64,000 bases of DNA from a virus (IMGVR_UViG_3300025012_000083:1763-65762); one strand, 5' to 3'. Positions 23,636-63,766 are shown, counted from the stretch's first letter. Translations and numbers: made by a program. Notes: generated from the letters alone by a model not told the origin.

Positions 23636-23639
23636 TATC

Positions 23640-43961: not shown

Positions 43962-44020
43962 AAAGGGAATCTAAAAATTTCCTTTTTTTCTATCTTTAAA
44001 CTTGAAAGGAGCAAAACAAA

Positions 44021-45543: not shown

Positions 45544-45811
45544 GGACTTCTAGCAGAGTCCTTTTTCTTTTTGTCTATAATTGTACCACTATGCTATATA
45601 AAACGTATTATAAGTCATTCTGGAGCCTCTGACATCAATCTATTATCCTTATATCAATACTACCCTATCCAATCGTCTTGTAAACACTAATATAAAATAT
45701 ATTGACAACTGCAAAATGAATTTATATACTCTTAATTAATCCACCTTATCAGTAATTCAATTACATACCAAATACTAAAAATACATAAATAAAAAAAGGA
45801 AGTGCAACCTC

Positions 45812-46195: not shown

Positions 46196-46601
46196 ACATA
46201 AATCACAAAATAAAATCCAAATTGAGGCTCTAACGAGTCTCTTTTCTATTCCCTAACATTCCCTCATCCATCCACCAAAACCATCTCACAATCAATCCTA
46301 GTGCATATCAGATTATATTCCGCTATAATCTAAAATACATATTCCCGATCACAACAAAATAAACCATAAAATAAATATTGACATATTATATCCCATCATG
46401 TTATAATTAATTTTACCCAATTATACAAAATAAATTTATAAAAAGGAGTTGAGCGAACCATACTAATTATTATTAATTTTGTTATTTGCATCTATAGATT
46501 CGGCTATACATAATAATCTAATCAATTATCTGTCTTTAATCATTGCATCATTTAATCACTGTATCAGAAAAAAATAAAATAATGAAAGAGTTAATATAAA
46601 A

Positions 46602-46823
46602 ATGAAATATAATGACTTTGAATCAACTATACTAGATATGCTCTACAATTCTTATGGTCCTAATGAACTGGAAGAAGAGCAAGAGCCGCAAGTATTAAAC
46701 CTAAAATACATCTTGGAATACTGCAATGAATATTCTTTAGAATCAGATCCAGACATAATATATCATGAATGGATACAATTATATGAGGGTAACGATGCAA
46801 TCATACTAGAAATATCATACTAG
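46602..46823 (+). CDS. Small acidic protein
   Basis: 73 aa, Glu/Asp-rich; promoter at 46378. Confidence 0.55.
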   Translation: MKYNDFESTILDMLYNSYGPNELEEEQEPQVLNLKYILEYCNEYSLESDPDIIYHEWIQLYEGNDAIILEISY

Positions 46824-46929
46824 AAATGATTATGGAAGAATACATGCGTATTATTGAAAGAAGCACTGGGAAAGTAATAATTAGACATCCAAAACAAAGA
46901 AAAGTAATTAATCTAGAAGGAGAAAAATA

Positions 46930-48177: not shown

Positions 48178-48541
48178 TAAATAAAATCGCTCATAATTGA
48201 CATGGCCTTTATATTATAGTTATTATGGGGACTTCAATTATGGTCGATTCTTTATAAAATCTCTAAAAACAATAGCTTGCAGCGCCTTTTCAATTTTGAG
48301 TAAACTCAAAATAGCATTTATCAACTCTTTATCAACTCCATTCTAATAATCCCTTAAATATAGACAAAGGGGAACGCAACATAATTTCCGGCAAGTGTGC
48401 GGAAATTCTGGTTATATTTTCTTAATCAATTTTCTCTTTTTATATCCTAAAGATAAAAATAAAATACTTTACAAAACATAATCCTATCTATATAATACTA
48501 ATCAATATCAAAATACATAAAAAGAAAGAAGGTACACACTA

Positions 48542-48859
48542 ATGAAAAAATTATTATCTATCCTAACCCTTTCCATTTCCCTCCTAACATCTTCCATCCT
48601 CACAACTTCCGCTTCACCCACAATTCAACCCAACTCCGATACATCCTACACAATGATAGCACTAGCCACACAAAGCACCTATAATCCTTCAGATTCCTGC
48701 TATCATACAACTCTACAAAATGAGAATGGAAATACCTTTATAGTCCTAACTGCTGACAATGTAAAAGACAAATGGTTTTCTTGCTCAGTGGATAGCAATA
48801 ATACACCGGAAAACATAAAAGATGATAAAATTATTGATTTAGGATTGCTAGAAGACTAA
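48542..48859 (+). CDS. Secreted small protein
   Basis: Sec signal peptide MKKLLSILTLSISLLTSSILTTSA; own promoter at 48468. Confidence 0.65.
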   Translation: MKKLLSILTLSISLLTSSILTTSASPTIQPNSDTSYTMIALATQSTYNPSDSCYHTTLQNENGNTFIVLTADNVKDKWFSCSVDSNNTPENIKDDKIIDLGLLED

Positions 48860-48974
48860 ATACTAAAATAAAATTATACCATTGCAAAACTATTCAACCT
48901 ATGCTATATTTATGGCATAGGTTTTTACTGTAATCAATTCAAATCTAAAATATTAGAAAGAAGGTAAAATACAT

Positions 48975-49523
48975 ATGATCAAATTAACCGAACTCAAGCG
49001 CATGATAAAAGCCAACAACTTGAACCCTTGTTTTTATGCTGAAGGATTAAATAATGTCATTTTCAACTATAAGCAACAACTTACCATTATTTTAAAGCAA
49101 ATTGACCAACCAAAACTATTTGCTTATTTACAATCAACTAATTATGTCTCTGCTGATTTAAAATTTACTCCATATAATCTGGATATGGATCTTAAAAATA
49201 AATTTGAGAGAATCACAGCTAACAAACTAGAACATACACAAATGCTAGTGGATACTGGAATACAATTCCACAAAAAAGGAAAATGGAAAGATGAGCAGAA
49301 AATTCTTTACAAAGTATTCAAAACTGAAAAAGGATTAATGAAGATTAAAGACGAATATCTTTGCATCTTGAATCAGAACATTAAAAAAGGAGTCATGTTA
49401 AAAACTAATGAAGCACATTCAATGGTATTTATCTATAATAATACCTTTGATATTATCGGTGTTTGCATGGGAGAAAAATTCGAAATGAGCGAACTAACAG
49501 AATATACACAATGGGGATCTTAA
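48975..49523 (+). CDS. Hypothetical early protein
   Basis: Promoter at 48882, RBS, terminator at 49522. Confidence 0.6.
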   Translation: MIKLTELKRMIKANNLNPCFYAEGLNNVIFNYKQQLTIILKQIDQPKLFAYLQSTNYVSADLKFTPYNLDMDLKNKFERITANKLEHTQMLVDTGIQFHKKGKWKDEQKILYKVFKTEKGLMKIKDEYLCILNQNIKKGVMLKTNEAHSMVFIYNNTFDIIGVCMGEKFEMSELTEYTQWGS

Positions 49524-49630
49524 GGAGCTTTACAGCTTCTTTTTTCTTTGCTTAATACAATTTCCCTCCATCTATATCTAATCTCTTACAATCCCTATCC
49601 ACGGGCCCTTAAAACCTAAAATAAAACAGT

Positions 49631-49659
49631 TTGACATTGTGTTATTTATCCTTTATAAT
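49631..49659 (+). promoter_or_regulatory. Consensus sigmaA promoter
   Basis: TTGACA-N17-TATAAT. Confidence 0.8.
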
Positions 49660-49697
49660 CTTACTTAGTTACATAAATAAATTATTGGAGGAATAAA

Positions 49698-50886
49698 ATG
49701 TTTACAATTGATAAAATCAAATACCACGTACACGAGCAAATAATCAAAACTATTGATCTTTGTGTAAAACTTCAAGAAATTGACACACTGGAAAAATGGC
49801 TGAAAGATTGTAACACAGAGATTCAGCGCAGGGAATCAGAAAAAGAGAATACTTATCCTTTGTTTTATGAGAAAGCATATTTGGAAATGGTATTAGGGAA
49901 TCATTAATTTGATTCTCTTTTCTTTTGTCTCTGTTTTGTCTATTCTCCTTATCTTATCCCTTATAATCCTTCCAGACCTTCCACGATGTCATATAAGCCC
50001 TCAGATAATCAAACTAATACAAAATACACCACTAAAGTACAATAAAGGCCACAAACACAAATATAAAATATATGGTTGACATAGCCTTATTATTTTAGTA
50101 TTATAATTAGTAATTACATAAATAATTTAATAAAAGGAGTGCTTACGAATGACTGAAATTACACACGCTTACGGATCTTACAGAATGAAATTAACTCCAT
50201 ATATCACACTGGACGAAAATGGAGAAATAAACAACGAAAAATCCTACGCTCAAGTATCTGTATCTGATTTAGGAAATTTAAAATGGCCATTAATGTGGAG
50301 CAAACCTTTTCCACTAGCTGAAGCTCATGCAGCAATGACATTGTTTGAAGGCATAGGACATTTCCCTATAATGGATGTTTAAGAACCTTTTTAGGTTCTT
50401 TATTTTTCTAAATTAAATATTAAGGAGTGATCACAACATGAATCAAAAAACTTGGGAGTTAAAAAACACTAAGGAAACTACTGATTATATTTGTTGCAAT
50501 TGTCAAGAAAATATTATACATCATTCTCATTATACGGATCATAGGTTCTGTGAAGAGTGCAGGAATTATATTATCAATAGTTTTAATACGATGGAGGATA
50601 AAGAAAGTAAAAATAGATATTTTAACAGTGAAGACTTTTTAGATTCTGTATATGAGGAATTGAGTCCTAAATATTATGGAATTGATGAAAGATTTTAAAG
50701 GAGGGATTAAAACAAATGTCAAAACAATTTTTACATGATATTAAAATAATTTTTAAAATTTTAAAGGAAATATTTATATCTATTTTCTTTCCATTAACCG
50801 TGGAGCAAAAACTAGAAAGAATATTTGGGAAAGATAAACCATATAGACAAGACGAATTATTTGATGATTATTACGATTATCACTAA
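49698..50886 (+). CDS. Four small ORFs (49698-49907, 50149-50382, 50438-50698, 50716-50886)
   Basis: Each with an RBS; promoters at 49631 and 50076; terminators at 50381 and 50885. Confidence 0.6.
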
Positions 50887-51229
50887 GAGGCTGAAAACAG
50901 TCTCTTTTCTTTTTGTGTTAACACATTATACCAGTTATCAATTCCGGTAATTAAAACTCTTGTTTTATCCTATTGTATAAAGTGTAAAATAATTTTCCAA
51001 AATCTATTTTACAAACATATAAAAATTATGGTAAAATGAGAAGAACGCTAAATCTAATTTATTATTTATCCTTCACTCGTGTACATTTGTGTCTATAGTT
51101 AGTACACCACCAAGGCGAACATATTTCATAAATTCAATTAAAAATATCGTTTCTATAGACCATAAAAGAGTAAATCTAAATATAAAATATTTACTTGACA
51201 TTCATTCAAATAAGACTATAATAGTAATT

Positions 51230-51343
51230 AGATAAGTGGTATGTACCGAAATGGACGCAAGGTTAACCTCTTCGACTGTAGTTCCTAGAGCGTAGGCAGT
51301 AGAACGTTTTCCCTTAATCTCCTCTATGAGATATCACTTATCT
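51230..51343 (+). ncRNA. Structured 5' leader or small RNA
   Basis: Starts just after TTGACA-N16-TATAAT; AGATAAGTGGTAT pairs with ATATCACTTATCT and encloses internal hairpins. Confidence 0.45.
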
Positions 51344-51380
51344 AAAACCTAAATCAAACAACCTTTAAGGAGGAATACAT

Positions 51381-52004
51381 ATGGCTAAAGCAATCAAAAC
51401 TGAAAAATCCCTTCCAATGGTTCCAGTGATCGAAGAATTTTTAGCACAATGGAAACAAAGAGCTTTTGCATTTTACTCCCCATACTACAAGAAAAGTCAA
51501 TTCCTAGAAAAGCAGCACGAAGATGCCCACAAGGAATTAAATCAAGCGCAGGAGAAAATTGAAAAACCTTTAAAAGATGAGATAAAACCCATGATGGTAG
51601 AACTTGATAAAATGGAAGTCAATGACGAAAGCAGAGCGTATTGGGAAACTATACAGGCAAAACAAGAAAATGTAAAAAGGATGATGGTTCCATATTTTAA
51701 CAGGTATCAAATTACTATGAAAGATAATCAAGAATTTATCAAAGAGAATCGGGAATTTATTATCTGGAATAGTAAAATCAATTTAGATCAAGCACTTGAC
51801 CGTGAAGTATTAAGTAAAAAGAAAACACTGTTTACTAGAATTCTTAAAAAGACAGGCAATATCTTGGATGCAAAATTGAACATAGGAGCAAACGGAGAAA
51901 TTAATGGAACGATTGCAGGAGATATTGCAACAGTAAAAGTTGAAACAATATACGCAGGAGGCCACAACATACAATGTTTACACTATAGGGTACTAGTAAA
52001 GTAA
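51381..52004 (+). CDS. Conserved phage protein
   Basis: 207 aa, coiled N-terminus, C-terminal VETIYAGGHNIQCLHYRVLVK. Confidence 0.7.
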   Translation: MAKAIKTEKSLPMVPVIEEFLAQWKQRAFAFYSPYYKKSQFLEKQHEDAHKELNQAQEKIEKPLKDEIKPMMVELDKMEVNDESRAYWETIQAKQENVKRMMVPYFNRYQITMKDNQEFIKENREFIIWNSKINLDQALDREVLSKKKTLFTRILKKTGNILDAKLNIGANGEINGTIAGDIATVKVETIYAGGHNIQCLHYRVLVK

Positions 52005-52047
52005 AGGACTTGAAATATAGTCCTTTCTTTTTCTTAATATAAGGGAG

Positions 52048-55000
52048 GTGAATATTTTGTATTATCCTAAATTATCTAAAAAGATTAGAAAAGATTGTAG
52101 TGATTGTCGGGCATGTAATCATGATGTATTTTCTAGCTCTAATTGTTCTCTATATTTTAAGACTGGTTCTAAAGAAATAGTGGGGTATCCTATATCAATT
52201 CCTTTAGAACCATGTCCAAAACCTTTGACTTATGATCAATATTTTTTATGTCGCGAAGTTTATAAAAGTAGATGGAGTGTGAATTAAAGAAGGCAAATAA
52301 ACCTTCTTTTCTTTTACTTCCAAATGCCCATTTTATAGGGATGTAAAAATTCAATTATCACTATTGGTATTATGAGAATACATAAATTTTTAGTTATGAA
52401 ATCAGCACAAAATAATAATTTATAATCTATTGCAATTATTTTAAAACTCTATATAATAAGGAGTAATTAAATAAATAAAAGGAGTTGTTTGAATATGCGT
52501 TCATTCATGGAAATTTCAAACGAATTTACAGCACTCGGAGAGCAACACGGGAAAAATGGTATTGACAACTCAAAAAGACTTTTAGAACTTGAAAAGGAAT
52601 TTGCCGAACGTGCTGAAACTATCACACAAGAAAAAATCAAAACTAAGTACAAAGGTAAAAAAATTACTTTTTGGGATAATATTAAGACTGACTATGCGAC
52701 TTCTACGCATCCTGAAGAATATCTAGGAATAGAAAGAAAATTTAGTGACAAAGACGGAGTTTTAGTTGACTGGTATACACATAAAGCAAGTTTTTACGGA
52801 GTAAATAAAGAAGCTGAATAAAGCTTCTTTTTCTTTGTCCTCATATTGTACTAATATAATTAATATGCTAAAATGAATTATAAATAAATTTAAGGAGTTG
52901 ACCAAACATGGAAATCACAAAAGAATACAACTATGACTGGGAGATCCCAAAAGAAATATTCTTAAGTCATTGCAGTAAAGTTGGTAAATTATTAGTGCAA
53001 TTTCCCTTAGAAGCAAAGAGAGTAGATTTTAGATTCGATGGAGGACAAAACTTAGAAAAGATAACTAAAAAGAATATATTTCTTAAGACTTCGGATACCT
53101 TGAAAAACAGAGAAATAATAAAAGAGTATAGAGGTAAAATAAAAGAAGTTGACGAGTCGGAATATATATACTGGGAGAAAGGGCATAAACGGAAGGTATT
53201 AAAAGCCATTGAAGAAGGTATGCCAGTGCCGGAAGAAGTTAAAAAGGATTATACTATAAACTAGGATCTTATTCCTAGTTTTTCTTTTGTCCTACTAGTA
53301 CCTTAAAACCTATATTTTAACCCTTGCACGAATCTACCGGATCAAAAATAAATGTAAAATAATTTTTAAAATTCTAACACAAATATAAAAATGTATGCTA
53401 TAATAAATCATCAAATAAATTTATATGGAGGTTATGAAAATGAGAGATGTATTAGTTTTTGATCGAGACACAAACCAAGAAGCGGTAATTCAAGCAAAAA
53501 CATTAATCGAAGCCACTAGAAAATACATGAAACAAAATAAAATCAGCGGAAATGTTAAGCGCACCAGTGATAATGGATGGAGATTCAACGCGATAGAAAT
53601 TCAGAAAGGAGAATACATAGACAGGATAAAAGTTGGAGTAAATAGTTGGTATTTGTGGACAAACTAAGAACTAAGCAATTAGTTCTTTTTCTTTTCCCTA
53701 AAATCCTTCCTACACGCTCACAAATCCTCTATAATCGCTCAGAACTCTATACCCTATATTATCGCACCACAAGCAAAACATAACCCTTTATACGCTCAGT
53801 AAATATAAAAATAATTATTTCCAACATGACTATTCGCGCCTATTATGTGCTATAATATATGAAATGGTACATATTTAAGGAGTTGGAGCAAATGTTTAAA
53901 TTGACTATTTACGAAAATGGTTATATTTTTGAAACTGAAAAAGGCAAAATTAATTACGGAAATATACCATCTGATATAAGTGAAGCAACTGAATTTAATG
54001 GTCAAGAAGCATATAAACAATTTTGGCTATTACGATTCAATAAACAAGATGAGAAAGTACAAAACATCTTAAAAGCAGTATATCCCAATTATTTAGAGAG
54101 ACTAGAGACCGAACAACTTAAAACTCCTGACAAGTTGTGGAATATTGCAATTAACAAACTAGTAAAATTAGAAACTAAATTCATGAAAGAATGTACTCGT
54201 TGCGGAGGGACAGGACATTACTCATACAACCAACAAATAGGAACTAAATGCATAAAGTGTAATGGATTGAAGTATACATTACCTAAAATCACCAAAAAAT
54301 GGCTAGAAGATGTTACAGAATATTTTCAAAAGTAATATTAGGAGGTTTTTACCTCCTATTGTTTTTTATGATATAATATTAATTAATTTTCAGAAAGAAG
54401 GACTAATAATGAGAAGAGAAAAATTAAAACATTTTGCTAATAAAATAATTGACATTAATTTGTATGATTATATATTAGATAATTATGACATTGACAATTG
54501 GGATGAAGTTATAAATTATATATCTGATTTAAGTAGAAATCATAAAGATAAAAAGTGGTATATTTCAAATAATTCTATTAAACTTGCTATTAAAATTAAA
54601 ACAGAATTAAATATAGATGTTTTCCTTATAATATTTAGAACTTATGCGGGGAAATGGTTAAAAGCCGGAGCAGCTTTTACATGGTTTATGTATATGGATA
54701 ATACTGGTATAATTGGAGGATGTTCTAATGCTTCAAAATATATTAAAAAGAATAGTAGATTAGAATTATATACAGGAGATAATGATTTGGAATTAATGAT
54801 TAATGATTTGGAATTAATGATTAATGATTAGAGATTAGGCCACAAACCTAGTCTTTTCTTATGTCTAAATATAAAATCCTCCTTCCAACTCTCACTAACC
54901 CCAAACATAACGTGCAGAATACCATCTCTAAGCCCTTATAATCTATATCCTTATATAATTCCCCTCTAACACGTTTTAAACCTGCTAGAATCAAAATACA

Positions 55001-55373
55001 GATATGAGGCCCATGAATGTTAAAATAATATTATATTGACATTGTAGCGGTCAATCCTTATAATACTAAGTAATTACATATTATTTAGGAGGTTGAGCAA
55101 ATGGAGAATTGGCAAATTGAATCATCTAGCTACCACGACAAGAAAAAGAATAAACTATGGATCACTGTACTAATAGAGGACACTAACAACTACATAGAAA
55201 AATGGGAGCATAACTATTACATTTACTGCATGGTAGAATTTATTAAAGGTAACGAACCCAAAATTAATTTTGCTATTCCAAACGCCAGAGGATTGAAAGG
55301 AATAGAACTTACAGAGTATCAAAAAGAATTAGTAATAAACGCAGCAATCGAAACAAGTAAAAAATACAATTAA
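52048..55373 (+). CDS. Seven small early ORFs, one with a DnaJ-type Zn finger (CTRCGGTG...CIKCNG, ~53892-54335)
   Basis: ORFs 52048-52287, 52489-52821, 52908-53264, 53425-53667, 53859-54335, 54310-54831 and 55101-55373, each ending in a hairpin terminator. Confidence 0.6.
54780..54828 (+). repeat. 21-bp tandem duplication at an ORF end
   Basis: TAATGATTTGGAATTAATGAT x2, giving NDLELMI-NDLELMI-ND. Confidence 0.8.
55036..55064 (+). promoter_or_regulatory. Consensus sigmaA promoter
   Basis: TTGACA-N17-TATAAT. Confidence 0.8.
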
Positions 55374-55651
55374 GACTAGCTGAAAATTCTAGTCTTTTTC
55401 TTTGTCTAAAATAAAATCATGTTAATCATTTAGCCGGATCAACTCATTTTCCATTTTTAATCCTTCACAAACCAAAAACACACGCACATAAACGGCCCTT
55501 CTTTCCTTCAGATTGCATTGCCCTTTATAATCTTACCTAGCATCGATTTAAACGTCTCAGAATCAAAATAGGGTTAATTGTGACTGAAAACCTATATAAT
55601 TCACCTATAAATTAAATATAAAATTTATTTTTAAAATACCTCAAAAGGGTA

Positions 55652-55680
55652 TTGCAATCTTATTCAACATGTATTAAAAT
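55652..55680 (+). promoter_or_regulatory. sigmaA promoter heading the long right-hand unit
   Basis: TTGCAA-N17-TAAAAT. Confidence 0.65.
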
Positions 55681-55689
55681 AAGGCCATG

Positions 55690-56315
55690 GAAGAGATACA
55701 TAAACCACTAGGAAGTAGTTAGTGGTCATTGAATACAAAAATAAAGGTTTTCCGATTTGCCCTCAAAAAATCGAGGTGACTGGTAAAACAGCCTAAAAGC
55801 TCTTTGAAAACTGAATAAAACTTTCCTGAAGTTATACAAAAGTTGTTTATATGTCTATAAGTTCGCTTGCGTCTGATGGCAATTAAACAATATGGAAATA
55901 CTGGCTCTAAGGTAGCCAAGGAAGTAATAGGGAAAGGCTTAAAACCTCTCTTTTATATTATCTAATTCTCTATCCTTCATAAATTCTAGCATATGGGATA
56001 TTCCCTCTATATCAAAATTTTCTTAACAGCGTCCCTTAGTCGAATGATGATCTAAGACAGCCAAAAGAAAATAAAGATACACGGAATACAAAATATGTTA
56101 GATTTTATAAAGGATAGAGGAAAAGATAAAAACATTCTATAAATCCCTTCAGTTTATTCATTATTACAATTTAATCATAACAATTCATTTAAACTTGCAT
56201 AACATTATTAAAATGCAGGTTGTTGTAATTTAATGTTAAATTGTCTATACTTAGGGCTGAAGGGATTGAATTTTCCGCAAGGTGTGAACTTATAACAATG
56301 AGTTTAGACCTTGTT
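55690..56315 (+). ncRNA. Long structured leader RNA
   Basis: About 650 nt without a plus-strand ORF; stems ACCACTA/TAGTGGT, TCTATCCTT/AAGGATAGA, AATCCCTTCAG/CTGAAGGGATT. Confidence 0.5.
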
Positions 56316-56347
56316 TAAAATTTAAAGAATGAAAGAGGTTAAAAATT

Positions 56348-56901
56348 ATGAGTATGTACGCAATTGTCAAAGTTTTTAACACTGGTAAAATGGAGATTCA
56401 ACAGGCCACAATCGGAACTAAGGAGTTTGCAGAATCTCAAATGGAATCATGTTTAAATCAGGATGAATCAAATATATACAGAGGAAACATCAAAAAATGT
56501 CAAGAAAAAGGTATCGATCCAACTATGTGGATTGAAGCATTAAATTTACATGAGAATCTACGTGTAACTTATCAAGTTTGTCAAATTGGAATTATTCTAT
56601 AGTACTTTTAGAGTTTTTGAATTAATGCGCTGTGATAATAACAATGCATAGCGTGTTGACGTGTAAACTTGAAAGGAAGTGTTGAAAAATGAATGATGGA
56701 GAACGAGTGGAATTAATTAAGAATTGCTTAGATAATCCATATATCAAAAAGGGAATGCAGGGTATTGTATGGAACGATTTTGTTGGATATGATGGACATA
56801 TCACAATTCAATTTGATTTCGATATTTGCGGAAATACTATAGTCAGAGACAAATATAACACTTGGAACATTAAACCAGAATTTTTAAAGGTTATTGGTTA
56901 A
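56348..56901 (+). CDS. Two small ORFs (56348-56602 and 56689-56901)
   Basis: RBSs; each preceded by an AUAACA-loop hairpin. Confidence 0.6.
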
Positions 56902-56996
56902 AGTTAATTCCTAAAAGTTTGTTGGTCATAAGATAGCGGAGACTATAACAGATTCGCTATCTTGCGTCGAGTCAAACTTATAAGGAGTGGTAAGAA

Positions 56997-58311
56997 ATGG
57001 CTAAAGAAATGAATGTAAAAACTTTAGGAATTGTTGGTCTAGTATCTCAACTCAAATCAGGTCAAATTAACAGAGATGCTGAAATGCAGCGTTCATATGT
57101 TTGGGGGCAAAAAGAACAAACTGAACTTATTGACAGTGTTTTTCAAGTGTCAACTACTTATATTCCTCCCTTGATTGGTGCGGAAACTGAGGTTGAAATT
57201 GAGGTAAAAGGCAAACTAGAAAAAGGTTATCGACCTTTTGGATGGAAAGCAACGTTCCACTACTTTAGAAAAATTCCTAAACGATGAAATAAAATTAGGT
57301 CATAACATTCGGCCTGTTGTAATCGAAAATGAAGACGATACAATCGAAACTTACATAGTCGCAGGGAAAAAGTGGAGCGAATTACCGGACAGAGCGAAAC
57401 AAGTTTTCAAGAATTGCAAAATTCAAATGGTCTATTTTAAGGATATGACACAACATGAACGAGAGCTTCAATTTATCAAACTCCAAGGAGGTAAAAAATT
57501 AAGCAATGCAGAAGTAAATAAAGTTCGTATTGGTGGTACTGTCAGAGAGTTCATTTATAAGCAATTGGCAACAGACCTATGGACAAAACATGTTGCTATT
57601 TCTTCTAATCGCGAAGTAAAATTTGAAGCAATGCAACAAACTTTAATGGTTATGTCTAGAAATTATGACTTATCCGGCAAGTCATTACAAGCCTTTTCAG
57701 AGGATTCTATAATGGTCACTGATGACATCATAGAGCAAGTTGAACAGGTCACAGAATACCTAAATGAAGTTGTAGCACTTATCAAAAAATTCTCATTACC
57801 TGCTGAACTTCAATCCCTTGAAGAATCTGAAGTTATAACCAAACTCGAACCTAAAGAGCTTAAAAAGTATCTCAAGACCATAGACTATCTCAAGAAGGTA
57901 AATGTTCCTATCATCTATAATACTGCCTTAAAAGCCCTTCAGAACGATGTAAATACAAAAGACTTCGCTAAGTTTATCTCTAAATTCTTTGAGAATGTTT
58001 CTGCTAAATATAAGAGCAAAACGGAATCAGGAAGTTCTGATTCTGATAAAGTTAAGGCTAGAATTGATATGCTGAACGATGCCTTAATTAGCGAGTTTAA
58101 AATTGTGGAAAAGGTTGTTGAAGTAAAAGCGGAAGAGATTCAAACTGAAAACCTTGAATCCACTATAACAGTGAGCGCAGAAGAGTTCAGCGATGAAACA
58201 GAAAATAAAGAAGAACAGTCAGAACAAACTATCAATGATAAACAAGAACAGGATCAAGAATTCCAAGAAGAAACTCAAGCAATCCTAAACATTGTAAACA
58301 ATGTTGCTTAA
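56997..58311 (+). CDS. DUF262 (ParB-like/GmrS-like) protein split by a +1 frameshift
   Basis: QRSYVW...LIDS...IPP in the first ORF and DGKQR in the second; removing one A from 57220-57224 restores EKVIDLLDGKQR. Confidence 0.75.
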
Positions 58312-58411
58312 TCCATAAATAATTGTATCTGGAGTCTAGACAATAACAATATTAATTTGCTATTGTCTAGCATTCGAGGTAAAGTTATTATATTCAAAGG
58401 AGGTCAAACAA

Positions 58412-59646
58412 TTGCAATTCTTAACCCACTACGAACGCTACAACGTGTTAAAATGGGAGCAACGTCAAATCATGCCAAGTTCAAATTTTGTGGCCTTAAA
58501 CAATTCCTTTATGAGCCACAATTCTTCCTTGATAGGTTTCCAGGTTGAACATGAAGACAAACGAGTTCATTATTCAGTTAGTAATATGTTTCTTAACAGG
58601 TTGCAAGCTCAATTTCCTGATAACTGGTTAAAAATTCTTAATGATGGTATGATAGCAGAGTTTAAACAGTGGGAAAGAGGTATATATTCTAACATGTATC
58701 AAGAGGGATTTTTCAGTTAATAAAATCTATTACCCAAATCTTAAAATAAAATTTAGAGAATTAGCCTTAATTCTCTTTTAAGTTCATACAAAATAGGTTA
58801 TAATATTTATAACAAATGTATGAACTTAAAAGGCAATTGTGGAGAATATCTATAACAATTGACCTAGAATACTTGAAGGAGGTTCACAAGTGAAATATTG
58901 TGATTTTTGCAATGAGTCTTTCGACGTTCAATTTGTTACTAAATATGAAACATTGATACACAAAAAGAAAGTATTATATATTTGTGAGTATTGTAATGAT
59001 GAGCATTCAGAATATGACGATGCTGAAGAAATGCAGTCGATTACTTATGGCGATTCGATTTATTACCCTTCACGCTTGCTATAACAAATCAAAGGAGAGT
59101 GATTTTATAATGGAAAAATTAAGTTTTGATATAAACAATGGAAGCACTGTTGAACTAATACAATTTAAACATGATGGAAGTGTATTAATAACAAAGTATG
59201 ACAGCAAAGGCAATCAAGAAACGAATACAGAATCTATTTCTGCAGGTGATTTTATAACAATGCTTAATTGGTATAGGTATGAAAAAGGGAAAGGAAATCA
59301 CAGTTTAAATTTTGACTAACCATTCTTTATCTCGACAGTGGGCAGGTAACATAACAATAACAATGTTATTTGCCTAGTTTCGAAATTAAGAAAGGAAGTG
59401 TATAGAATGAAAGATTTTGTAATTAATAACGTGAATATGATCAAAGAAGATTTTTCGCAAATGATTAACTATGTAGGTCAAAGAGCTATCGCATTAGCCG
59501 AAGTAGAAGAAGGTATTGCAATTAATACTTCTAACCCTTTAAACGAAAAAGATGTTCATAGTAGTATTATATTTTTCTTTGAAAAATGGAATAGGGTTTA
59601 TAAATTAGATTACGGACGAAATGATATTGAAATCGTTTGGAGTTAA
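58412..59646 (+). CDS. Four small ORFs (58412-58720, 58890-59084, ~59109-59319, 59398-59646)
   Basis: RBSs present; the second ORF has two CxxC pairs. Confidence 0.6.
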
Positions 59647-59754
59647 TAACTTTAAATTCTAATTTTGATTGTATGGAAATAGGGCGAAGTGACATAACAA
59701 TAACAGGACTTCGTCTTGATTCGAGACTATCAAAATTTAAGGAGCGTGCATATT

Positions 59755-60012
59755 ATGACAAAGAAAGAAAACTTTAAATTAATTGCGGAGATTGCAAAAA
59801 GAGCAGAAAGTATGAATTTACTCATGTTTGACAGATTTTCTTTAATTATGGATTTAGAATGTGCGAACCGTGAATTCAATTTGAGACTTGAAGAATTTTT
59901 GGATGCAGATAATTTTAATTTTGCTCATGATATTAGCGGTATCCAAAATAATCTAAACAGACAAACGAAGCAATTTGAAAATTGTTTTTTGCCTAGATTT
60001 TCAAGCAAATAG
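59755..60012 (+). CDS. DUF6874-like phage protein
   Basis: MDL...L.LEEFLDADNFNFAHDISGI...CFLPRF; ATG at 59755 after AAGGAG. Confidence 0.6.
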   Translation: MTKKENFKLIAEIAKRAESMNLLMFDRFSLIMDLECANREFNLRLEEFLDADNFNFAHDISGIQNNLNRQTKQFENCFLPRFSSK

Positions 60013-60030
60013 ATTAAAACCAAACTTTTA

Positions 60031-60115
60031 AGGCATTTTGCAGAGTGTAAAGGGTAATATATCTATAACAATTGCCCTTTATTAATGCACTGGCACACGT
60101 TTCAAGTCGTGGCCT
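60031..60115 (+). ncRNA. Twister ribozyme (type P5), possibly degenerate
   Basis: GCA-GAGUG-[P1 hairpin]-UAA-UGC-AC...CAC-GUUUCAAGUC-GUG, closed by AGGC/GCCU; T1 pairing imperfect. Confidence 0.6.
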
Positions 60116-60143
60116 ATGCTAAACTAAGAAAGAGGTTATCAAC

Positions 60144-60482
60144 ATGACTAATGAACTAAAAGAGCGCATTAAAGAAGAAAATAAATATTCCGATTTATTA
60201 AAAAGCAATCCAAAATATATTCTTCAAGGTTGTGACATGAAAACTAAAAAGCGTATCGTTGGAATTATTCGAGGGAACCCAAACGAATATCATGTTACAG
60301 ATTTTCTAGATTACAAATATTTTGATTCTTGGAAAGACGCTTATATGCAATTAGAATTAAATAAAGTGTACTGCTCAAACTGTGGAAAATCTATAACACC
60401 AGAAGTCACAGAATACGAGGAAGGACTAGAAAATTTTGAAAGTGAAAAGATATGTCCTATATGCGAAGAATATATTAATTAA
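60144..60482 (+). CDS. Zn-ribbon protein flanked by two twisters
   Basis: 112 aa, CSNC...CPIC. Confidence 0.65.
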   Translation: MTNELKERIKEENKYSDLLKSNPKYILQGCDMKTKKRIVGIIRGNPNEYHVTDFLDYKYFDSWKDAYMQLELNKVYCSNCGKSITPEVTEYEEGLENFESEKICPICEEYIN

Positions 60483-60555
60483 TCTTGCAGAGTGGTAGAG
60501 CGTATAACAAAACGCTCTATTAATGCACAAGACAGGTCACAAGTCCTGTTAAGAT
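60482..60555 (+). ncRNA. Twister ribozyme (type P5)
   Basis: GCA-GAGUG-GUAGAGCGU/ACGCUCUAU-U^AA-UGC-AC-AA-GACAG-GUCACAAGUC-CUGUU; GUG/CAC and AC/GU pseudoknot pairs; AUCU/AGAU closing stem. Confidence 0.8.
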
Positions 60556-60580
60556 GCTAAATTATTAGGAGGAATATATA

Positions 60581-63037
60581 ATGTCCAAATCTCTTCAAAC
60601 TTTAAAAACCAACATTACTAAAGGCTCACAAAGACTTTCCAAAACTACTATTAAAAACATCGTAAATGCCGGAGAATTTGATAAAATTGAACTTGCCTAT
60701 TCTTACGATGGCAGAGAAGTCCACAAAGGGACTTTGATCGAAAATCCTGTTGAATGGTTCAATAAAGAGTATGAATTATTGGACGTTCGGCTCTACAAGG
60801 TAGAAAAAGGTTTAGTTTTAATTCATTTGCAATTCCATTCTAACCTATGGTATGCTCTACATATTGACTTAAATAAAAACTATGAAACAACCAACGCACC
60901 AGGAGTTAAAGCAGAAAATAAAGTTCAAGATGTTCAAGTAACGGAAACAAAAACCTATCTTGACACAATGCAAAGCAAATTCAAAACAGGAGAAGGAACA
61001 GCAGAGGAACTAAGATCCTATTATACTTATTTAATTGAAAATGTTGATTCTGTAAAAGTTGTAATTCTTGACATGCTGAACAATTCAGAACAACACAAAC
61101 GGAAACGTGCAAATACTAAAGCGGAATTGACTGAGGATTGCTATAACAACATGGTAGAGGCTCTTGTATATCATGTTAAAGACACTTTATCTTACCAGAT
61201 GGATTTTACTGATATCAAAGGAGCAAGACAAAGAGCTATCAAGACAATTCTTGATTCTGCTACTGACGAAATGATACAAACCCAATATACCAAAAACAAA
61301 GCAGAGAAAGAAGAAAGAACAGTACAAAGAAAGGAATTAATTGAAGGGATTACAAATCCCCAAACCCTAGAGGATTTCCATAATGTCAAATATTATCGCA
61401 ATGACAAAAACTTGACCATTGAAGAACAACAGCGTTTTGATCATATTTATTCAATCTCTCAGAAAGTAAAGAGAGAAAAAGAACAGCAGGAGCGAAAAGA
61501 AAAAGCACTTGCAACAGTTGTCGGATCAAATGACATGTACGCTATAACAGCAGACGTTGACACACGCGACAATTCTCCTCTATGGGTTGTAAAACTCATA
61601 AATACTCTTAGTAAAGATGAATGGAGAATTCATGATTCACAAATGAAATTAATTAGCGGTTATTATTCAAGATTCAAAAAAGGCCACATTTTCAAGTATG
61701 ACCCAACATCTAAATTATTAGGAGAACAGTCTGAAGAAAACCAAGTAGAACAGTTGGAAGAAATCCAAGCATCTAGCAATAACAGCGACAAACTACGCAA
61801 GGTAGCAGACAACATGCAAAACACAATTGACAACAAAAGAGCAAACATACTGACAAATACTGCAAGAAGAGCAAGAATGGCAATAGGTCAAGAAGAGCAA
61901 GCAGACACATTAGAACAAATGCAGGGAGTTTTGCGAAATATTGCAAATGCTATTGAATATGGTGAATTAACATTTATTAATCTTATTGATTCTAGGACAC
62001 AAGTTGACACACTAGAAAGCATTCTTAATCGTGCAAACTGGAAATATAAATCAGTTGAAAATATTGATTATAATGTATGGCATAATTCTCCAATAACAAC
62101 AGACATTATTAGGTTCGCAGAAATTCCCTCAAGTACAATTTATCTTCGTCAATTACAGTCTATTATTAATGATATTCGCAATACTGACGGTTTTAAACTC
62201 ATTGCAAACCGATTGCAAAAACTAATTGACAATGCAAAATTAAAGCAAAAAGATCCTCACCATGACCCACTAATTGATATTTCAGATTATGATGCTGAAC
62301 TTGATAAGATTTACAAAAATACTGATGTTTTGTACAATCAATATTTTGAAACCGCAATCGAAGAACGCAGGAGATTATCAAGAATGGGCATAGAATCAGT
62401 TGAAGAATTAAGGGAATATCTAAGGGAATACTTCAATTATCGAACCGTTAAAAGCTCAATTGACCCAACTCAACAAAAAATTAAAGAGTTGGAAAGAAAA
62501 TTCAAGTTCGATCAAAAAGGAGATACTTTCTTTACTCCTTCAGACATTGCCCTTCAAATGATTGAATTGGCCGACATATCTAATAACAGCAGAGTTCTTG
62601 AACCTTCAGCCGGAATTGGAAATATTGCAGACCAAATTCAAAAGTTTGTTGACAATGTTGATGTTTGTGAACAGATGTATTCATACCAAGAACTGTTAAC
62701 TCTCAAAGGTTTTAATGTTGTAGGAAGTGACTTCCTGAAGTATGAAAATAACAATTATTACGACTGTGTGATAATGAATCCCCCATTTTCAGCAGAACAG
62801 GATCACATTAAACATGCTTATGATCTTCTTAAGGTTGGTGGAAAACTCATTGCAATTACTTCGCCGCATTGGACTTTTGCCAATGACAAATCATCAAAAG
62901 AATTCCGTCAATGGTTCGAGAATTTGAATGGTGAAATTGTAGAAGAATTAGAGTCAGGAACTTTTGAGATGACACAAGTTAGATCAAATATAATTGTCAT
63001 TAATAAAGACACTGAGACCATGCAAAAGGCTGTATAA
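60581..63037 (+). CDS. Large protein with C-terminal N6-adenine methyltransferase domain
   Basis: FFTP, VLEPSAGIGNI and IMNPPF motifs in the last ~190 aa; long helical N-terminal region. Confidence 0.8.
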   Translation: MSKSLQTLKTNITKGSQRLSKTTIKNIVNAGEFDKIELAYSYDGREVHKGTLIENPVEWFNKEYELLDVRLYKVEKGLVLIHLQFHSNLWYALHIDLNKNYETTNAPGVKAENKVQDVQVTETKTYLDTMQSKFKTGEGTAEELRSYYTYLIENVDSVKVVILDMLNNSEQHKRKRANTKAELTEDCYNNMVEALVYHVKDTLSYQMDFTDIKGARQRAIKTILDSATDEMIQTQYTKNKAEKEERTVQRKELIEGITNPQTLEDFHNVKYYRNDKNLTIEEQQRFDHIYSISQKVKREKEQQERKEKALATVVGSNDMYAITADVDTRDNSPLWVVKLINTLSKDEWRIHDSQMKLISGYYSRFKKGHIFKYDPTSKLLGEQSEENQVEQLEEIQASSNNSDKLRKVADNMQNTIDNKRANILTNTARRARMAIGQEEQADTLEQMQGVLRNIANAIEYGELTFINLIDSRTQVDTLESILNRANWKYKSVENIDYNVWHNSPITTDIIRFAEIPSSTIYLRQLQSIINDIRNTDGFKLIANRLQKLIDNAKLKQKDPHHDPLIDISDYDAELDKIYKNTDVLYNQYFETAIEERRRLSRMGIESVEELREYLREYFNYRTVKSSIDPTQQKIKELERKFKFDQKGDTFFTPSDIALQMIELADISNNSRVLEPSAGIGNIADQIQKFVDNVDVCEQMYSYQELLTLKGFNVVGSDFLKYENNNYYDCVIMNPPFSAEQDHIKHAYDLLKVGGKLIAITSPHWTFANDKSSKEFRQWFENLNGEIVEELESGTFEMTQVRSNIIVINKDTETMQKAV

Positions 63038-63112
63038 GTTATAACAACCATACTACAAGGGTTCGAGGGTATCCCTAAAAAATACCCTTACTATTTTAAA
63101 AGGTGGTTTATT

Positions 63113-63304
63113 ATGACTTATAAATATGTTATCAATTCCACTGGTGGAAGTTCTACTAAATATGGCAATTGTGAAGTTTGCGGAAAACATGCAAGCGAAG
63201 TTTTTTTACAAATTGAAGAAAGAAAATATAGTGAAGGTTATACACATTTTAAATGTAATTCATATTTTGGTCATAGGGAATGTTTGGAGAGTAAAAGAAG
63301 ATAA
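63113..63304 (+). CDS. Small Cys/His-rich protein
   Basis: YGNCEVCGKH...FGHRECL; AAGGTGG RBS. Confidence 0.6.
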   Translation: MTYKYVINSTGGSSTKYGNCEVCGKHASEVFLQIEERKYSEGYTHFKCNSYFGHRECLESKRR

Positions 63305-63325
63305 ATAATTTATTTTGATAATGCC

Positions 63326-63379
63326 CAAATGCTTTACACTAATATAAAAATAATATATAATATTAGTGTAAAGCATTTG
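63326..63379. repeat. Perfect 20-bp inverted repeat
   Basis: CAAATGCTTTACACTAATAT / ATATTAGTGTAAAGCATTTG. Confidence 0.8.
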
Positions 63380-63490
63380 CAATCAATTAAACCTTACATT
63401 TCCAATACCAAAATGGTATAATCTGTATAACACAACTCAAAATTTCAAGCAGGGAATTTCAAAATTCATTAAGAAAGGAAGGTTAAAACA

Positions 63491-63766
63491 ATGAACAATT
63501 ACATTACAAGCAAAGTAAAATTCGAGGAAATTGATTCTAATACATTCAGAATTAATAACACAATCTACACTGTAAATCACGACAAAGACCCTGAATATAT
63601 CGATGATGGAGTATTAAATCTTAGTTATTATCATCTAGAAAAAGATGGAGAACAATCTCAATATATTCTAGCATTTAACAAAATTGAAGGTATTGATCCA
63701 GAAGATGTTAGCGAATGGTCAGACGAATATGACTCTAATAACCCATATATTTTAGAGTTTAATTAA
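63491..63766 (+). CDS. Small acidic protein
   Basis: 91 aa, RBS, TGGTATAAT promoter at ~63414. Confidence 0.6.
   Translation: MNNYITSKVKFEEIDSNTFRINNTIYTVNHDKDPEYIDDGVLNLSYYHLEKDGEQSQYILAFNKIEGIDPEDVSEWSDEYDSNNPYILEFN

What the first reader, a model, noticed from the sequence alone, without database searches (positions are those of the whole stretch)
56140..63070. Operon punctuated by hairpins that share an AUAACA loop motif
Seen: from 56.1 kb on, most intergenic gaps contain a stem-loop whose stem sequence is unrelated from copy to copy but which presents (U/C/A)AUAACA in or beside the loop. Copies: 56192-56221, 56278-56313, 56625-56656, 56930-56963, 58336-58370, 58776-58831, 58831-58865, 59339-59376, 59681-59717, 60048-60081, 60495-60520, and a weaker one at ~63033-63055. 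The stems use G-U pairs on the plus strand, which points to RNA structure. Several are followed by NNNUCGA(G/A) and then the next RBS. They lack U-tails, and I saw no clear sigmaA promoters between 55.7 and 63.3 kb, unlike the 43-55 kb region. Two copies are the P1 stems of twister ribozymes. Inference: a repeated protein-binding RNA tag that coordinates processing, antitermination, stability or translation of a ~7-kb phage operon. I know no described system with this layout.
Basis: partly seen in the sequence, partly recalled or inferred. Interest (0 to 1): 0.85.

Follow-up and report, generated by a model that had tools for sequence, protein, structure and literature searches.

The report
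AUAACA-tagged hairpins punctuating a phage operon
A long operon of small accessory genes in an uncultivated SPbeta/c-st-like phage is saturated on its sense strand with the hexamer AUAACA, shown mostly in the loops of hairpins between genes that sit in the same slots as self-cleaving ribozymes, which points to an undescribed way of cutting and marking a phage messenger RNA.

Summary
In the window, ATAACA is the commonest intergenic 6-mer from 56.1 kb on (16 seen, 1.2 expected). It sits in the apical loop of 10 strong and 2 weak hairpins that have no T-tails and fold better on the + strand. One hairpin is P1 of a Type-P5 twister (58.6 bits). A second scores 35.1 bits, just under Rfam's cut-off.

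New findings:
- The hexamer is also enriched inside the block's coding sequence (13 vs 3.5 by synonymous shuffling).
- 24 related metagenomic loci and one IMG/VR locus carry the same sharply bounded, + strand-only block, about 12-17 kb long, although gene content is almost entirely different.
- Many hairpins are composite: the loop hexamer lies 21-24 nt upstream of UCGAR, which pairs with YUGGA, often around a G.G mismatch.
- The gap upstream of the conserved methyltransferase gene holds, in different relatives, a twister, one of two composite hairpins, or a terminator plus promoter. Pistol ribozymes also occur in the block.

Best reading (0.5): RNA-level punctuation, with loop-directed cleavage leaving hairpin-capped mRNAs, plus an operon-wide RNA tag read by an unidentified factor. 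No RNA data exist, so the mechanism is inferred. I found no description in Rfam or in my literature searches.

The parts
55036..55064 (+). Last consensus sigma-70-like promoter (TTGACA-17-TATAAT) before the block. Candidate promoter of the unit, followed by a 90-aa ORF (55101-55373) and a ~975-nt stretch without ORFs.
   Evidence: 12 of 12 match; ORFs; no terminator-like site between it and the block. Its role as the block's promoter is inferred.
56141..56205 (+). Conserved ~60-nt sequence at the point where ATAACA enrichment begins. It contains the first two ATAACA copies (56177, 56199).
   Evidence: the 5' half is nearly invariant in 7 loci, including two (L007, L017) whose 3' half differs.: 92-95% identity.: the block starts here in relatives.
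56192..56221 (+). Hairpin, 9 bp, ATAACA at the 5' edge of the loop.
56277..56314 (+). Hairpin, 16 pairs (3 G-U), ATAACA in the loop. The L001 homologue has a different loop without the hexamer.
56622..56659 (+). Hairpin, 13 pairs (4 G-U), loop ATAATAACAATG.
56915..56979 (+). Composite element: upper stem, ATAACA loop (56945), UCGAG at 56967-56971 paired with UUGGU, with a G.G mismatch in the lower stem.
   Evidence: z -5.1
58321..58386 (+). Composite element: ATAACA at 58343, UCGAG at 58374-58378 opposite CUGGA, with a G.G mismatch.
   Evidence: z -6.2; conserved in L001, L010, L015, L019
58769..58865 (+). Two adjacent hairpins: a long one with ATAACA (58809) in the apical region, and a weak 6-7-bp one with ATAACA (58852) in the loop.
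   Evidence: In L001 the first hairpin's loop lacks the hexamer.
59320..59395 (+). Composite element: tandem ATAACAATAACA loop (59351, 59357). UCGAA at 59380-59384 is paired with UCGA on the 5' side (fully paired variant).
   Evidence: z -6.2
59661..59737 (+). Composite element: tandem ATAACAATAACA loop (59694, 59700). UCGAG at 59721-59725 lies opposite UGGA, with a G.G mismatch.
   Evidence: z -4.5; minus strand z -0.25
60039..60111 (+). Twister-P5-like element just below Rfam's threshold. ATAACA (60065) is in the P1 loop.
   Evidence: 35.1 bits against gathering 37.6; not listed in the wider scans
60486..60548 (+). Type-P5 twister ribozyme. ATAACA (60504) caps P1.
   Evidence: 58.6 bits
63033..63067 (+). 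Weak hairpin after the methyltransferase gene, with ATAACA (63041) and UCGAG (63063-63067) at the usual 22-nt spacing. Conserved in 10 further distinct sequences.
56348..63766 (+). Block genes: small ORFs, a frameshifted DUF262/GmrSD_N gene, a DUF6874 gene and an 818-aa N6-adenine methyltransferase. They carry 13 in-frame-independent ATAACA copies (e.g. 56855, 57302, 58165, 59188, 59254, 60393, 61143, 61544, 61779, 62093, 62583, 62748, 63555).
   Evidence: 13 against 3.56 expected; 0 of 500 synonymous shuffles reach 13
63326..63379 (+). Long AT-rich hairpin without the hexamer, overlapping a promoter-like site (63333-63361). It is a local break inside the block; ATAACA copies continue to 63555.

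Best explanation
The elements act in the sense RNA of one long, terminator-free transcription unit of cassette-like accessory genes. The phage is an uncultivated relative of SPbeta and c-st.

After almost every gene, 20-55 nt past the stop codon, the RNA forms a hairpin. Its loop displays AUAACA, set 1-4 nt from the 3' arm.

In the composite form, UCGAR lies 21-24 nt from the start of the hexamer, about one helical turn below the loop. It pairs with YUGGA, often around a G.G mismatch.

I propose that a trans-acting factor reads the loop and that an endonuclease cuts at or near this lower site. The factor and the nuclease could be the same protein, acting like a ruler, or the nuclease could be a host double-strand RNase. 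The cut would leave the upstream cistron with a 3' hairpin cap and the downstream cistron with a ~30-nt leader carrying its ribosome-binding site.

Twister and pistol ribozymes do the same job without a protein in some slots. A terminator plus a new promoter does it in others.

The same hexamer, scattered at high density through the coding sequence of whatever gene sits in the block, marks the whole transcript for the same factor. The purpose could be protection, timed decay or sorting.

Shown: the anatomy, the statistics, the strand, the conservation and the slot equivalence.
For: (1) Enrichment.
- 16 against 1.2 copies in the window's gaps.
- In 215 non-redundant gaps of 26 loci, ATAACA is the top 6-mer with 203 copies; the next has 122. 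It is present in 141 of 183 gaps of 60 nt or more.

(2) Loop display.
- 29% of intergenic copies lie in loops of hairpins with 7 or more pairs, against 5.8% for all 6-mers.
- 52 of 248 hairpins carry it.
- The motif-to-3'-arm distance is tight (quartiles 1-4 nt), while the 5' side is loose.

(3) Sense-strand folding.

(4) Ribozymes.
- Twister-P5 in the window and in L001, L006 (two), L012, L013, L019 and L021. Pistol in L014 and L015.
- 6 of 8 distinct twisters carry ATAACA in the P1 loop, on three different P1 stems.

(5) Slot equivalence, from the gap upstream of the methyltransferase gene in 19 loci:
- twister in 2
- one composite hairpin family in 4
- another composite hairpin family in 6
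- terminator-like hairpin plus TGnTATAAT promoter in 6
- other in 1

(6) Fixed geometry.
- ATAACA-to-TCGAR spacing is 21-24 nt in 13 of 17 sequence clusters.
- TCGAG occurs 32 times against 12.4 expected.
- The YUGGA/UCGAR arrangement with G.G is seen in 7 of 14 hairpin clusters, and a fully paired UCGA/UCGA in 2 more (my reading of the folds).

(7) Position: 20-55 nt after stops and 50-90 nt before starts; TCGAR is mostly 27-38 nt before the start.

(8) Operon-wide tag.
- Coding enrichment of 13 against 3.5 (window) and 21 against 4.5 (G001), with no shuffle reaching either value.
- Only 2 of 13 block genes recur widely among relatives.
- The block is sharply bounded.
- Motif sites are predicted to be more accessible than same-composition controls: 0.39 against 0.33 in coding, p 1e-4.

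(9) No T-tails and no intergenic terminator-like sites in the block.
Against: - No RNA evidence of any kind. The only runs holding the sequence are DNA.
- No reader or nuclease was identified. No RNase III domain was found in the two phage fragments, which are 42% and 32% complete. The PIN-PhoH gene is only 31% identical between two phages that share the motif.
- About 70% of intergenic copies are not in predicted loops. Some homologous hairpins and 2 of 8 twisters lack the hexamer.
- Covariation within homologous families is modest: 36 variant pair types keep pairing (only 3 changed on both sides) and 22 break it.
- Processing alone does not explain the coding-sequence enrichment.
- Four ATAACA direct repeats lie just upstream of a promoter-like site at 44.9-45.05 kb. 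These look like DNA-binding sites, so a DNA-level reader cannot be excluded.
- The accessibility effect is small.
Confidence: 0.5

Rival explanations
1. Targets for programmed decay. AUAACA is the cleavage or entry site of a sequence-specific endoribonuclease that switches this class of messages off at a set time. Phage T4 RegB does this at GGAG (recalled). The phage's own PIN-PhoH (PhoH2-type) RNA helicase/RNase is a candidate. Loops and open coding stretches simply expose the site.
For: - The motif is spread over coding and non-coding RNA and is block-specific.
- It is more accessible than controls.
- A PIN_4+PhoH protein is encoded at 24343-25584.
Against: - PhoH2 is 31% identical between the window's phage and G001, while neighbouring genes are 70-95% identical and the motif is unchanged.
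- A cut in the loop would destroy the hairpin. That makes the fixed-distance UCGAR site and the ribozyme equivalence hard to explain.
- No RNA data.
Confidence: 0.13
2. DNA-level signal on the + strand. Possibilities: a promoter, pause or loading element for the phage's YonO-type RNA polymerase or another factor; hairpins extruded as in phage N4 early promoters (recalled); or a polar signal of the Chi or translocase-orienting kind.
For: - The phage encodes a YonO orthologue, 52% identical to SPbeta YonO. The promoter of YonO is unknown (PMC5467207, passages).
- TATAAC resembles a -10 hexamer.
- The conserved sequence at the block start holds two copies.
- Direct ATAACA repeats flank a promoter at 44.9-45.05 kb.
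- Density-type enrichment with strict polarity is typical of DNA polar signals.
- A terminator-plus-promoter cassette occupies the same slot in 6 of 19 loci.
Against: - Stems rely on G-U pairs of the + strand, and the minus strand folds much worse. The N4-type hairpin is on the template strand (recalled).
- Two to eight of the hairpins are stems of ribozymes, which must be transcribed from upstream.
- 2-9 sites per kb inside genes is far too dense for promoters.
- SPbeta and the D-1873 contig have YonO but no ATAACA block.
- By synteny, YonO is expected to serve the late genes on the other strand.
Confidence: 0.15
3. Processive antitermination or anti-pausing tags. A lambda-N-like or put-like factor is loaded on the polymerase at each AUAACA hairpin and keeps it reading through 12-17 kb.
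For: - One long unit without recognisable internal promoters.
- Repeated hairpins with a shared loop resemble boxB (recalled).
- A conserved element at the block start could be the first loading site.
Against: - There is nothing to antiterminate. No T-tailed hairpins lie in the block (0 of 52 motif hairpins and 13 of 248 of all hairpins).
- Known systems use one or two sites per operon (recalled), not dozens including coding copies.
- It does not explain UCGAR spacing or ribozyme equivalence.
Confidence: 0.1
4. Cassette boundaries without a trans-acting RNA reader. The hairpin modules are mobile regulatory cassettes or recombination sites that mediate gene shuffling, like PeSLs of T4-type phages or, more remotely, integron attC sites (both recalled). 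The hexamer would be a hitch-hiking or recombination-related word.
For: - Gene content of the block is hypervariable while intergenic modules recur next to different genes.
- The twister module moved between slots.
- The neighbouring 44-55 kb region has PeSL-like terminator-promoter cassettes.
Against: - Stems are unrelated between copies, so they give no homology for recombination.
- It does not explain the enrichment at synonymous sites inside unrelated genes, nor the loop placement.
- No recombinase was seen in the block.
- attC sites conserve the stem base, not the loop (recalled).
Confidence: 0.08

Closest known systems
RNase III processing hairpins between genes of phage T7 early/late mRNAs and of Bacillus phage SP82 early mRNA
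   Same: - Irregular 50-75-nt hairpins without T-tails between cistrons of a phage polycistronic RNA.
- An internal loop or mismatch in the lower stem where a single cut would leave a 3' hairpin on the upstream message.
[quoted passage not shown] Details of T7 and SP82 sites are recalled.
   Different: - A shared loop hexamer, a fixed loop-to-site distance and operon-wide enrichment of the hexamer in coding sequence are not features of those sites, as far as I recall.
- Cleavage here is not shown.
Yeast Rnt1p substrates (AGNN tetraloop hairpins cut 14-16 bp from the loop; recalled)
   Same: Stems of any sequence, a conserved loop as the identity element, and a constant distance from the loop to a lower site (21-24 nt here).
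   Different: The enzyme is eukaryotic and the loop is a tetraloop. Here loops are 10-15 nt with a hexamer near the 3' arm. No RNase III homologue was found in the phage fragments. This is an analogy only.
Twister and pistol self-cleaving ribozymes (Rfam RF02684, RF02679)
   Same: They occupy the same intergenic slots in the same operon family. Two hairpins of the window are twister P1 stems.
   Different: The other hairpins match no ribozyme model. They conserve too little sequence, and the loop lies a full turn from the internal site, so self-cleavage is unlikely (inference).
Lambda-type nut/boxB and HK022 put antitermination RNAs (recalled)
   Same: Phage operon RNA hairpins whose loop, not stem, is the recognised part.
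   Different: Those systems have one or two sites per operon, a boxA partner and terminators to override. Here there are dozens of sites, no boxA-like word was looked for or seen, and there are no terminators.
CsrB/RsmZ-type RNAs and CsrA targets (GGA in loops of unrelated hairpins; recalled)
   Same: A short word shown many times in loops and single-stranded stretches of one RNA, with unrelated stems. The logic is one of site density.
   Different: The word is different and the RNA here is a 12-17-kb coding transcript, not a small sponge RNA. No CsrA-like reader is known for AUAACA.
PeSL mobile regulatory cassettes of T4-type phage hyperplastic regions (recalled)
   Same: Hypervariable arrays of small unknown ORFs, each bounded by a stem-loop module.
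   Different: A PeSL is a stem-loop plus an early promoter. In the block the promoter half is missing in most gaps, and a loop hexamer and a UCGAR site are present instead.

Membership tests
Type-P5 twister ribozyme (RF02684) | Covariance-model score at or above Rfam's gathering score (37.6 bits) | tested here: met
   60486-60548 scores 58.6 bits. The second copy, 60039-60111, scores 35.1 bits and does not meet it. Self-cleavage was not tested.
Intrinsic (Rho-independent) terminator | G+C-rich hairpin followed directly by a T-run | tested here: not met
   0 of 52 motif hairpins have 5 or more T in the next 8 nt. There is no intergenic terminator-like site in 56-63.3 kb, against 16 on the + strand of 44-55 kb.
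Any described RNA family (Rfam 15) | Match of the non-ribozyme hairpins to a curated model | tested here: not met
   Only weak chance-level microRNA and snoRNA matches, with E 0.05-9. Nothing at gathering score in the window or in 25 loci other than twister, pistol, skipping-rope and int-alpA.
RNase III processing site (T7 / SP82 type) | Cleavage by RNase III within a ~20-bp or longer irregular helix | not testable with these tools
   Helices of 16-28 pairs with an internal mismatch exist. No cleavage data. No RNase III domain in G000 or G001. The host is unknown.
Lambda nut / boxB antitermination site | Hairpin with a GNRA-like pentaloop plus boxA, upstream of terminators, with an N-type protein | tested here: not met
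   Loops are 10-15 nt with AUAACA. There are no terminators downstream. An N-like protein was not searched for.
N4-type hairpin promoter | Short hairpin (5-7 bp, 3-nt loop) formed by the template strand (recalled) | tested here: not met
   Stems have 9-28 pairs and loops of 10-15 nt. The non-template (+) strand folds better: -244.8 against -161.1 kcal/mol.
Integron attC recombination site | Conserved RYYYAAC / GTTRRRY at the stem base, a variable loop and an integron integrase nearby (recalled) | tested here: not met
   The conserved words here are the loop hexamer and YUGGA/UCGAR. No integrase was found among the block proteins scanned.
PeSL-type cassette (stem-loop plus early promoter) | Each ORF preceded by a stem-loop and a sigma-70 promoter | tested here: not met
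   Not met inside the block: no 11-12/12 promoter match lies between 55.1 and 63.3 kb. It is met by the neighbouring 44-55 kb region, and by the variant module upstream of the methyltransferase gene in 6 of 19 loci.

The most novel reading that the evidence does not exclude
A dedicated RNA address system. A phage (or host) protein recognises the AUAACA hexamer wherever it is single-stranded on one class of phage transcripts. At the intercistronic hairpins it measures about one helical turn from the loop to a G.G-mismatch site and directs 3'-end formation there. This would be a bacterial-virus counterpart of loop-directed processing (Rnt1p) and of 3' stem-loop binding proteins. It would be interchangeable in evolution with self-cleaving ribozymes and imposed on any gene cassette that enters the operon.
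Probability: 0.3. Interest if true: 0.85.

Novelty: new variant of a known kind. Interest (0 to 1): 0.68.

Why it matters
Natural roles of twister and pistol ribozymes are still largely unknown. Here they sit in slots that other relatives fill with a defined hairpin element or with a terminator-promoter pair. That gives a concrete, testable role: cutting a polycistronic phage message into capped units.

The hexamer is imposed on unrelated genes in a hypervariable accessory (probably anti-defence) operon. This suggests a transcript-wide label that decides the fate of a whole class of phage mRNAs. If a specific reader exists, it and its ~65-nt composite site would also be a compact, sequence-programmable RNA-processing module for operon engineering.

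If the elements turn out to be ordinary host RNase III sites, the result still documents an unusually regular punctuation grammar in a large group of uncultivated Clostridia-type phages.

Tried and rejected
**Negative or uninformative searches**
- Whole-window ATAACA count is not enriched (76 against 91 expected). The signal is local and strand-specific.
- Megablast and blastn of the block against 50,697 phage records gave nothing, then one 251-nt match in the DUF6874 gene of Bacillus phage 2S-4. No cultured relative of the block was found.
- The methyltransferase has only homologues below 30% identity in cultured phages, and none in the genome-contig scan.
- L002, L003, L004 and L029 (distant homologues) show no comparable motif bias or have another context, so they were left out of the later counts.
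- SPbeta (134 kb) and the 74.6-kb contig of Clostridium phage D-1873 were scanned for ATAACA or any block-specific 6-mer. No such block was found, so the feature is not a general trait of phages with a YonO-type polymerase.
- No RNA holder was listed by the look-up of sequencing runs (4 DNA rows, one study).

**Ideas tested and dropped**
- Depletion of TGTTAT on sense strands looked like avoidance of + strand ATAACA outside the block. It is general to all gene sets tested, so it says nothing.
- AR9-type late promoter (AACA-N6-TW, recalled): checked by eye on ten copies and not consistent.
- Hfq-type (ARN)n / AAYAAYAA reading (recalled): 113 of 203 intergenic copies are TATAACA, which breaks the repeat.
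- tRNA anticodon-loop mimicry: loops are 10-15 nt, not 7.
- Kissing partner UGUUAU: only 5 minus-strand copies in 42-64 kb and none in a loop.
- New self-cleaving ribozyme: unlikely, see Closest known systems.

**Steps that failed or were not possible**
- A covariance model of the composite hairpin was not built. The 5' loop part varies in length, MAFFT could not be expected to align the 5' arms, and Infernal is not in the script box. Within-family pair counts were made instead.
- The degenerate twister+ATAACA pattern scan of genome contigs returned 120+ rows, capped. None of those laid in /data had a P1-like pairing of 5 or more pairs (0 hits). This was a wasted scan and it is not exhaustive.
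- The RNase III family search covers only two incomplete phage fragments.
This call corrects that and changes nothing else.

**Literature**
- 'AUAACA'+'loop': 250 papers hold both terms, and the 15 listed are unrelated by title and abstract.
- 'twister ribozyme'+'phage'+'operon': 4 papers, none on this by title and abstract.
- 'YonO'+'promoter' and 'YonO'+'RNA polymerase'+'phage': only PMC5467207 bears on promoters, and it says the promoter is undetermined (passages).
- The sequence preference of PhoH2 could not be read. PMC7096712 is not held, and what I remember of it is not used as evidence.
- Supplements of papers were not consulted.
- My gene calls in the loci are a crude ORF/SD heuristic, so counts of 'gaps' carry that error.

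Full report
**What the window is**

The window is 64,000 of the 65,762 bases of one viral contig, rated 42% complete.

Genes on the minus strand up to about 42 kb include a terminase, a portal protein, a helicase, homing nucleases and an 840-aa protein. That protein matches Pfam RdRP. It is 52% identical over 93% of its length to YonO of SPbeta, and 62% identical to the homologue in Clostridium phage D-1873. An HU-like gene and a PIN-PhoH gene follow it, as in D-1873. The phage is therefore an uncultivated relative of the large SPbeta/c-st-type phages. The only sequencing runs holding it are groundwater metagenome DNA.

From about 43.5 kb the genes are on the + strand. Up to 55 kb each small gene has a near-consensus sigma-70-type promoter and a hairpin-plus-T-run terminator. 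From 56.1 kb on there are neither.

**The observation**

ATAACA is not enriched in the window as a whole. On the + strand, however, there are 30 copies in 56.1-64 kb and none in 46.2-54.2 kb.

In the 1,518 nt of intergenic DNA from 56,101 on it occurs 16 times, against 1.2 expected. The maximum in 2,000 shuffles was 6. It is commoner than the Shine-Dalgarno word.

Ten hairpins are strong and two are weak. The four long hairpins have z-scores of -4.5 to -6.2. They fold much better on the + strand, with 40 G-U pairs against 14. None has a T-tail.

One hairpin is P1 of a Type-P5 twister at 58.6 bits. The look-alike at 60039-60111 scores 35.1 bits when searched alone, just below the 37.6-bit cut-off, and was not listed in the wider scans.

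First, the hexamer is also enriched inside the block's genes.
- Block genes have 13 copies against 3.5 expected when synonymous codons are shuffled (0 of 500 shuffles reach 13).
- The early + strand genes have 2 against 5.4.
- The minus-strand genes have 17 against 20.8.

Second, the feature defines a family.
- A protein-guided scan with the block's 818-aa methyltransferase found one close IMG/VR locus (L001) and 25 metagenomic loci.
- L001 and L005-L028 all have 1.5-9 copies per kb on the gene strand and almost none on the other. One example is 41 against 0 in 18 kb of L021.
- The distant L029, L002, L003 and L004 do not show this.
- In the longer loci the enrichment starts abruptly and ends after about 12-17 kb. 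The window's contig stops 8 kb into its block.
- The start coincides with a ~60-nt sequence that is nearly invariant even where the flanks differ.

Third, gene content is hypervariable. Of 13 block genes of the window, only the methyltransferase (12 of 12 long loci) and the DUF262 gene (8) recur widely. Yet the block genes of G001, mostly unrelated, show the same enrichment, 21 against 4.5. The hexamer is therefore imposed on whatever lies in the block.

**Family-wide anatomy**

The counts below use my own crude gene calls.
- In 215 non-redundant gaps (27.6 kb), ATAACA is the top 6-mer with 203 copies. It occurs in 141 of 183 gaps of 60 nt or more.
- 29% of intergenic copies lie in the loop (plus two closing pairs) of a hairpin with 7 or more pairs, against 5.8% for all 6-mers. 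52 of 248 hairpins carry it.
- Loops are 10-15 nt. The hexamer lies 1-4 nt from the 3' arm, while its distance from the 5' arm is loose.
- The extended consensus is C-(U/A)-AUAACA-R.
- The copies sit 20-55 nt after the stop codon and 50-90 nt before the next start.
- Nine of 170 TAA stops are embedded in the hexamer, against about 3 expected.
- Motif sites are predicted to be slightly more open than same-composition words, both in coding and in non-coding RNA.

**A composite element**

TCGAG is 2.6-fold enriched in the gaps. TCGAR lies 21-24 nt from the start of the hexamer in 13 of 17 sequence clusters. By my arithmetic the chance of that is about 1e-5, given the 16 spacings allowed by the search.

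Reading the folds, UCGAR pairs with YUGGA on the 5' side as U:A, G.G, G:C, A:U in 7 of 14 hairpin clusters. It is fully paired with UCGA in 2 more, and the rest differ. The site is about one helical turn below the loop. TCGAR is mostly 27-38 nt before the next start codon.

Within homologous families, changed pairs mostly stay paired through G-U (33 one-sided and 3 two-sided against 22 broken). That is only modest support. The main evidence for structure is the recurrence of the same architecture on unrelated stems.

**Ribozymes and slot equivalence**

Rfam finds Twister-P5 in L001, L006 (two), L012, L013, L019 and L021, and Pistol in L014 and L015, all on the gene strand inside the block.

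Six of 8 distinct twisters have ATAACA in the P1 loop, on three different P1 stems. Two have other loops. Twister cleavage, as I recall its architecture, falls just 3' of P1. That is 17-19 nt from the hexamer, so the upstream product would end in the AUAACA hairpin.

The gap in front of the conserved methyltransferase gene was examined in 19 loci. It holds:
- a twister in 2
- one composite hairpin family in 4
- another composite hairpin family in 6
- a terminator-like hairpin followed by an extended -10 promoter in 6
- something else in 1

All four devices give the upstream message a hairpin end and the downstream message a fresh 5' end.

**Interpretation**

The best-supported reading is RNA-level punctuation of a long accessory-gene transcript, with the hexamer as an identity element. 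At the hairpins it is coupled to a cut at a measured distance. Elsewhere it marks the transcript.

This is inference. No RNA run holds the sequence, and no reader was found. The two phage fragments lack an RNase III domain. The PIN-PhoH protein belongs to a class described as sequence-specific RNA helicase/RNases, but it is only 31% identical between two phages that share the motif.

The DNA-level rival cannot be dismissed for three reasons:
- The phage has a YonO-type polymerase of unknown promoter specificity.
- TATAAC is -10-like.
- Four direct ATAACA repeats flank a promoter at 44.9-45.05 kb.

Against the DNA-level rival stand strand-specific G-U pairing, the ribozyme stems, the site density inside genes, and the absence of any such block in SPbeta and in the D-1873 contig. 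Antitermination lacks terminators to act on. A pure recombination-cassette reading does not explain the synonymous-site enrichment.

**Comparison with known systems, and novelty**

The nearest known systems are the RNase III sites between T7 and SP82 genes and, by logic, Rnt1p's loop-plus-ruler recognition. CsrA-type loop words and PeSL cassettes share single aspects.

None of the non-ribozyme hairpins matches an Rfam family. My literature searches listed nothing on this motif. I rate it a new variant of a known kind, intercistronic processing hairpins of phage mRNAs. There is a 0.3 chance that it is a dedicated loop-reading RNA address system.

Noticed in passing
window 23444-28668 (-): YonO-type RNA polymerase (26146-28668), PIN-PhoH (24343-25584), an HU-like protein (23953-24237) and then a skipping-rope RNA (23444-23522, 68 bits). 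In SPbeta the corresponding place after yonO-yonN is a 1.7-kb non-coding gap that holds the YonO start site and an unannotated RNA (PMC5467207 passages). The skipping-rope RNA may mark the start of the polymerase's late operon.
   Followed up: partly
window 44000-55400 (+): Each small gene has a near-consensus sigma-70-like promoter and a hairpin+T-run terminator. The terminator is followed by a recurring TTCTTTTGTC-like word. These are PeSL-like cassettes, a different punctuation grammar from the adjacent block.
   Followed up: partly
window 44941-45048 (+): Five ATAACA copies. Four are direct repeats spaced 14/8/14 nt just upstream of a promoter-like site (45020-45048), and one lies in its spacer, next to an AT-rich stretch. 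They look like DNA-binding sites or iterons. They were not found in G001.
   Followed up: partly
window 56997-58311 (+): The DUF262/GmrSD_N gene is split by a frameshift around 57238-57287. It is intact (417 aa) in L007. This could be an assembly error, a pseudogene or a programmed shift; which was not decided.
   Followed up: no
window 55374-56347 (+): About 975 nt without ORFs lie between the last consensus promoter/90-aa ORF and the first block gene. The segments 55426-55621 and 55799-55955 are conserved at 83-94% in relatives. No Rfam match.
   Followed up: partly
L014:8471-8545 and L015:18205-18279 (+): Pistol ribozymes (52.9 bits) in the block of two relatives, with ATAACA directly 3' of the ribozyme, before the ribosome-binding site.
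   Followed up: partly
L025:1-1949 (+): A 68%-identical methyltransferase gene fragment and its downstream region carry 18 ATAACA copies in 1.95 kb. Some lie between the Shine-Dalgarno word and the start codon, and some in tandem peptide-repeat coding sequence.
   Followed up: no
window 13104-13170 (-): int-alpA RNA motif (46.8 bits) between the portal gene and an HNH-type gene.
   Followed up: no
L153:9153-10833 (-) (SPbeta yonN-yonK gap): 1.7 kb of G+C-richer non-coding sequence in SPbeta, upstream of yonK. It looks like a large structured RNA. Not analysed.
   Followed up: no
G001 (L030) about 1900-4050: The terminase homologue matches in two separated pieces (1922-3241 and 3537-4043), which suggests an intervening element in that phage's terminase gene.
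   Followed up: no
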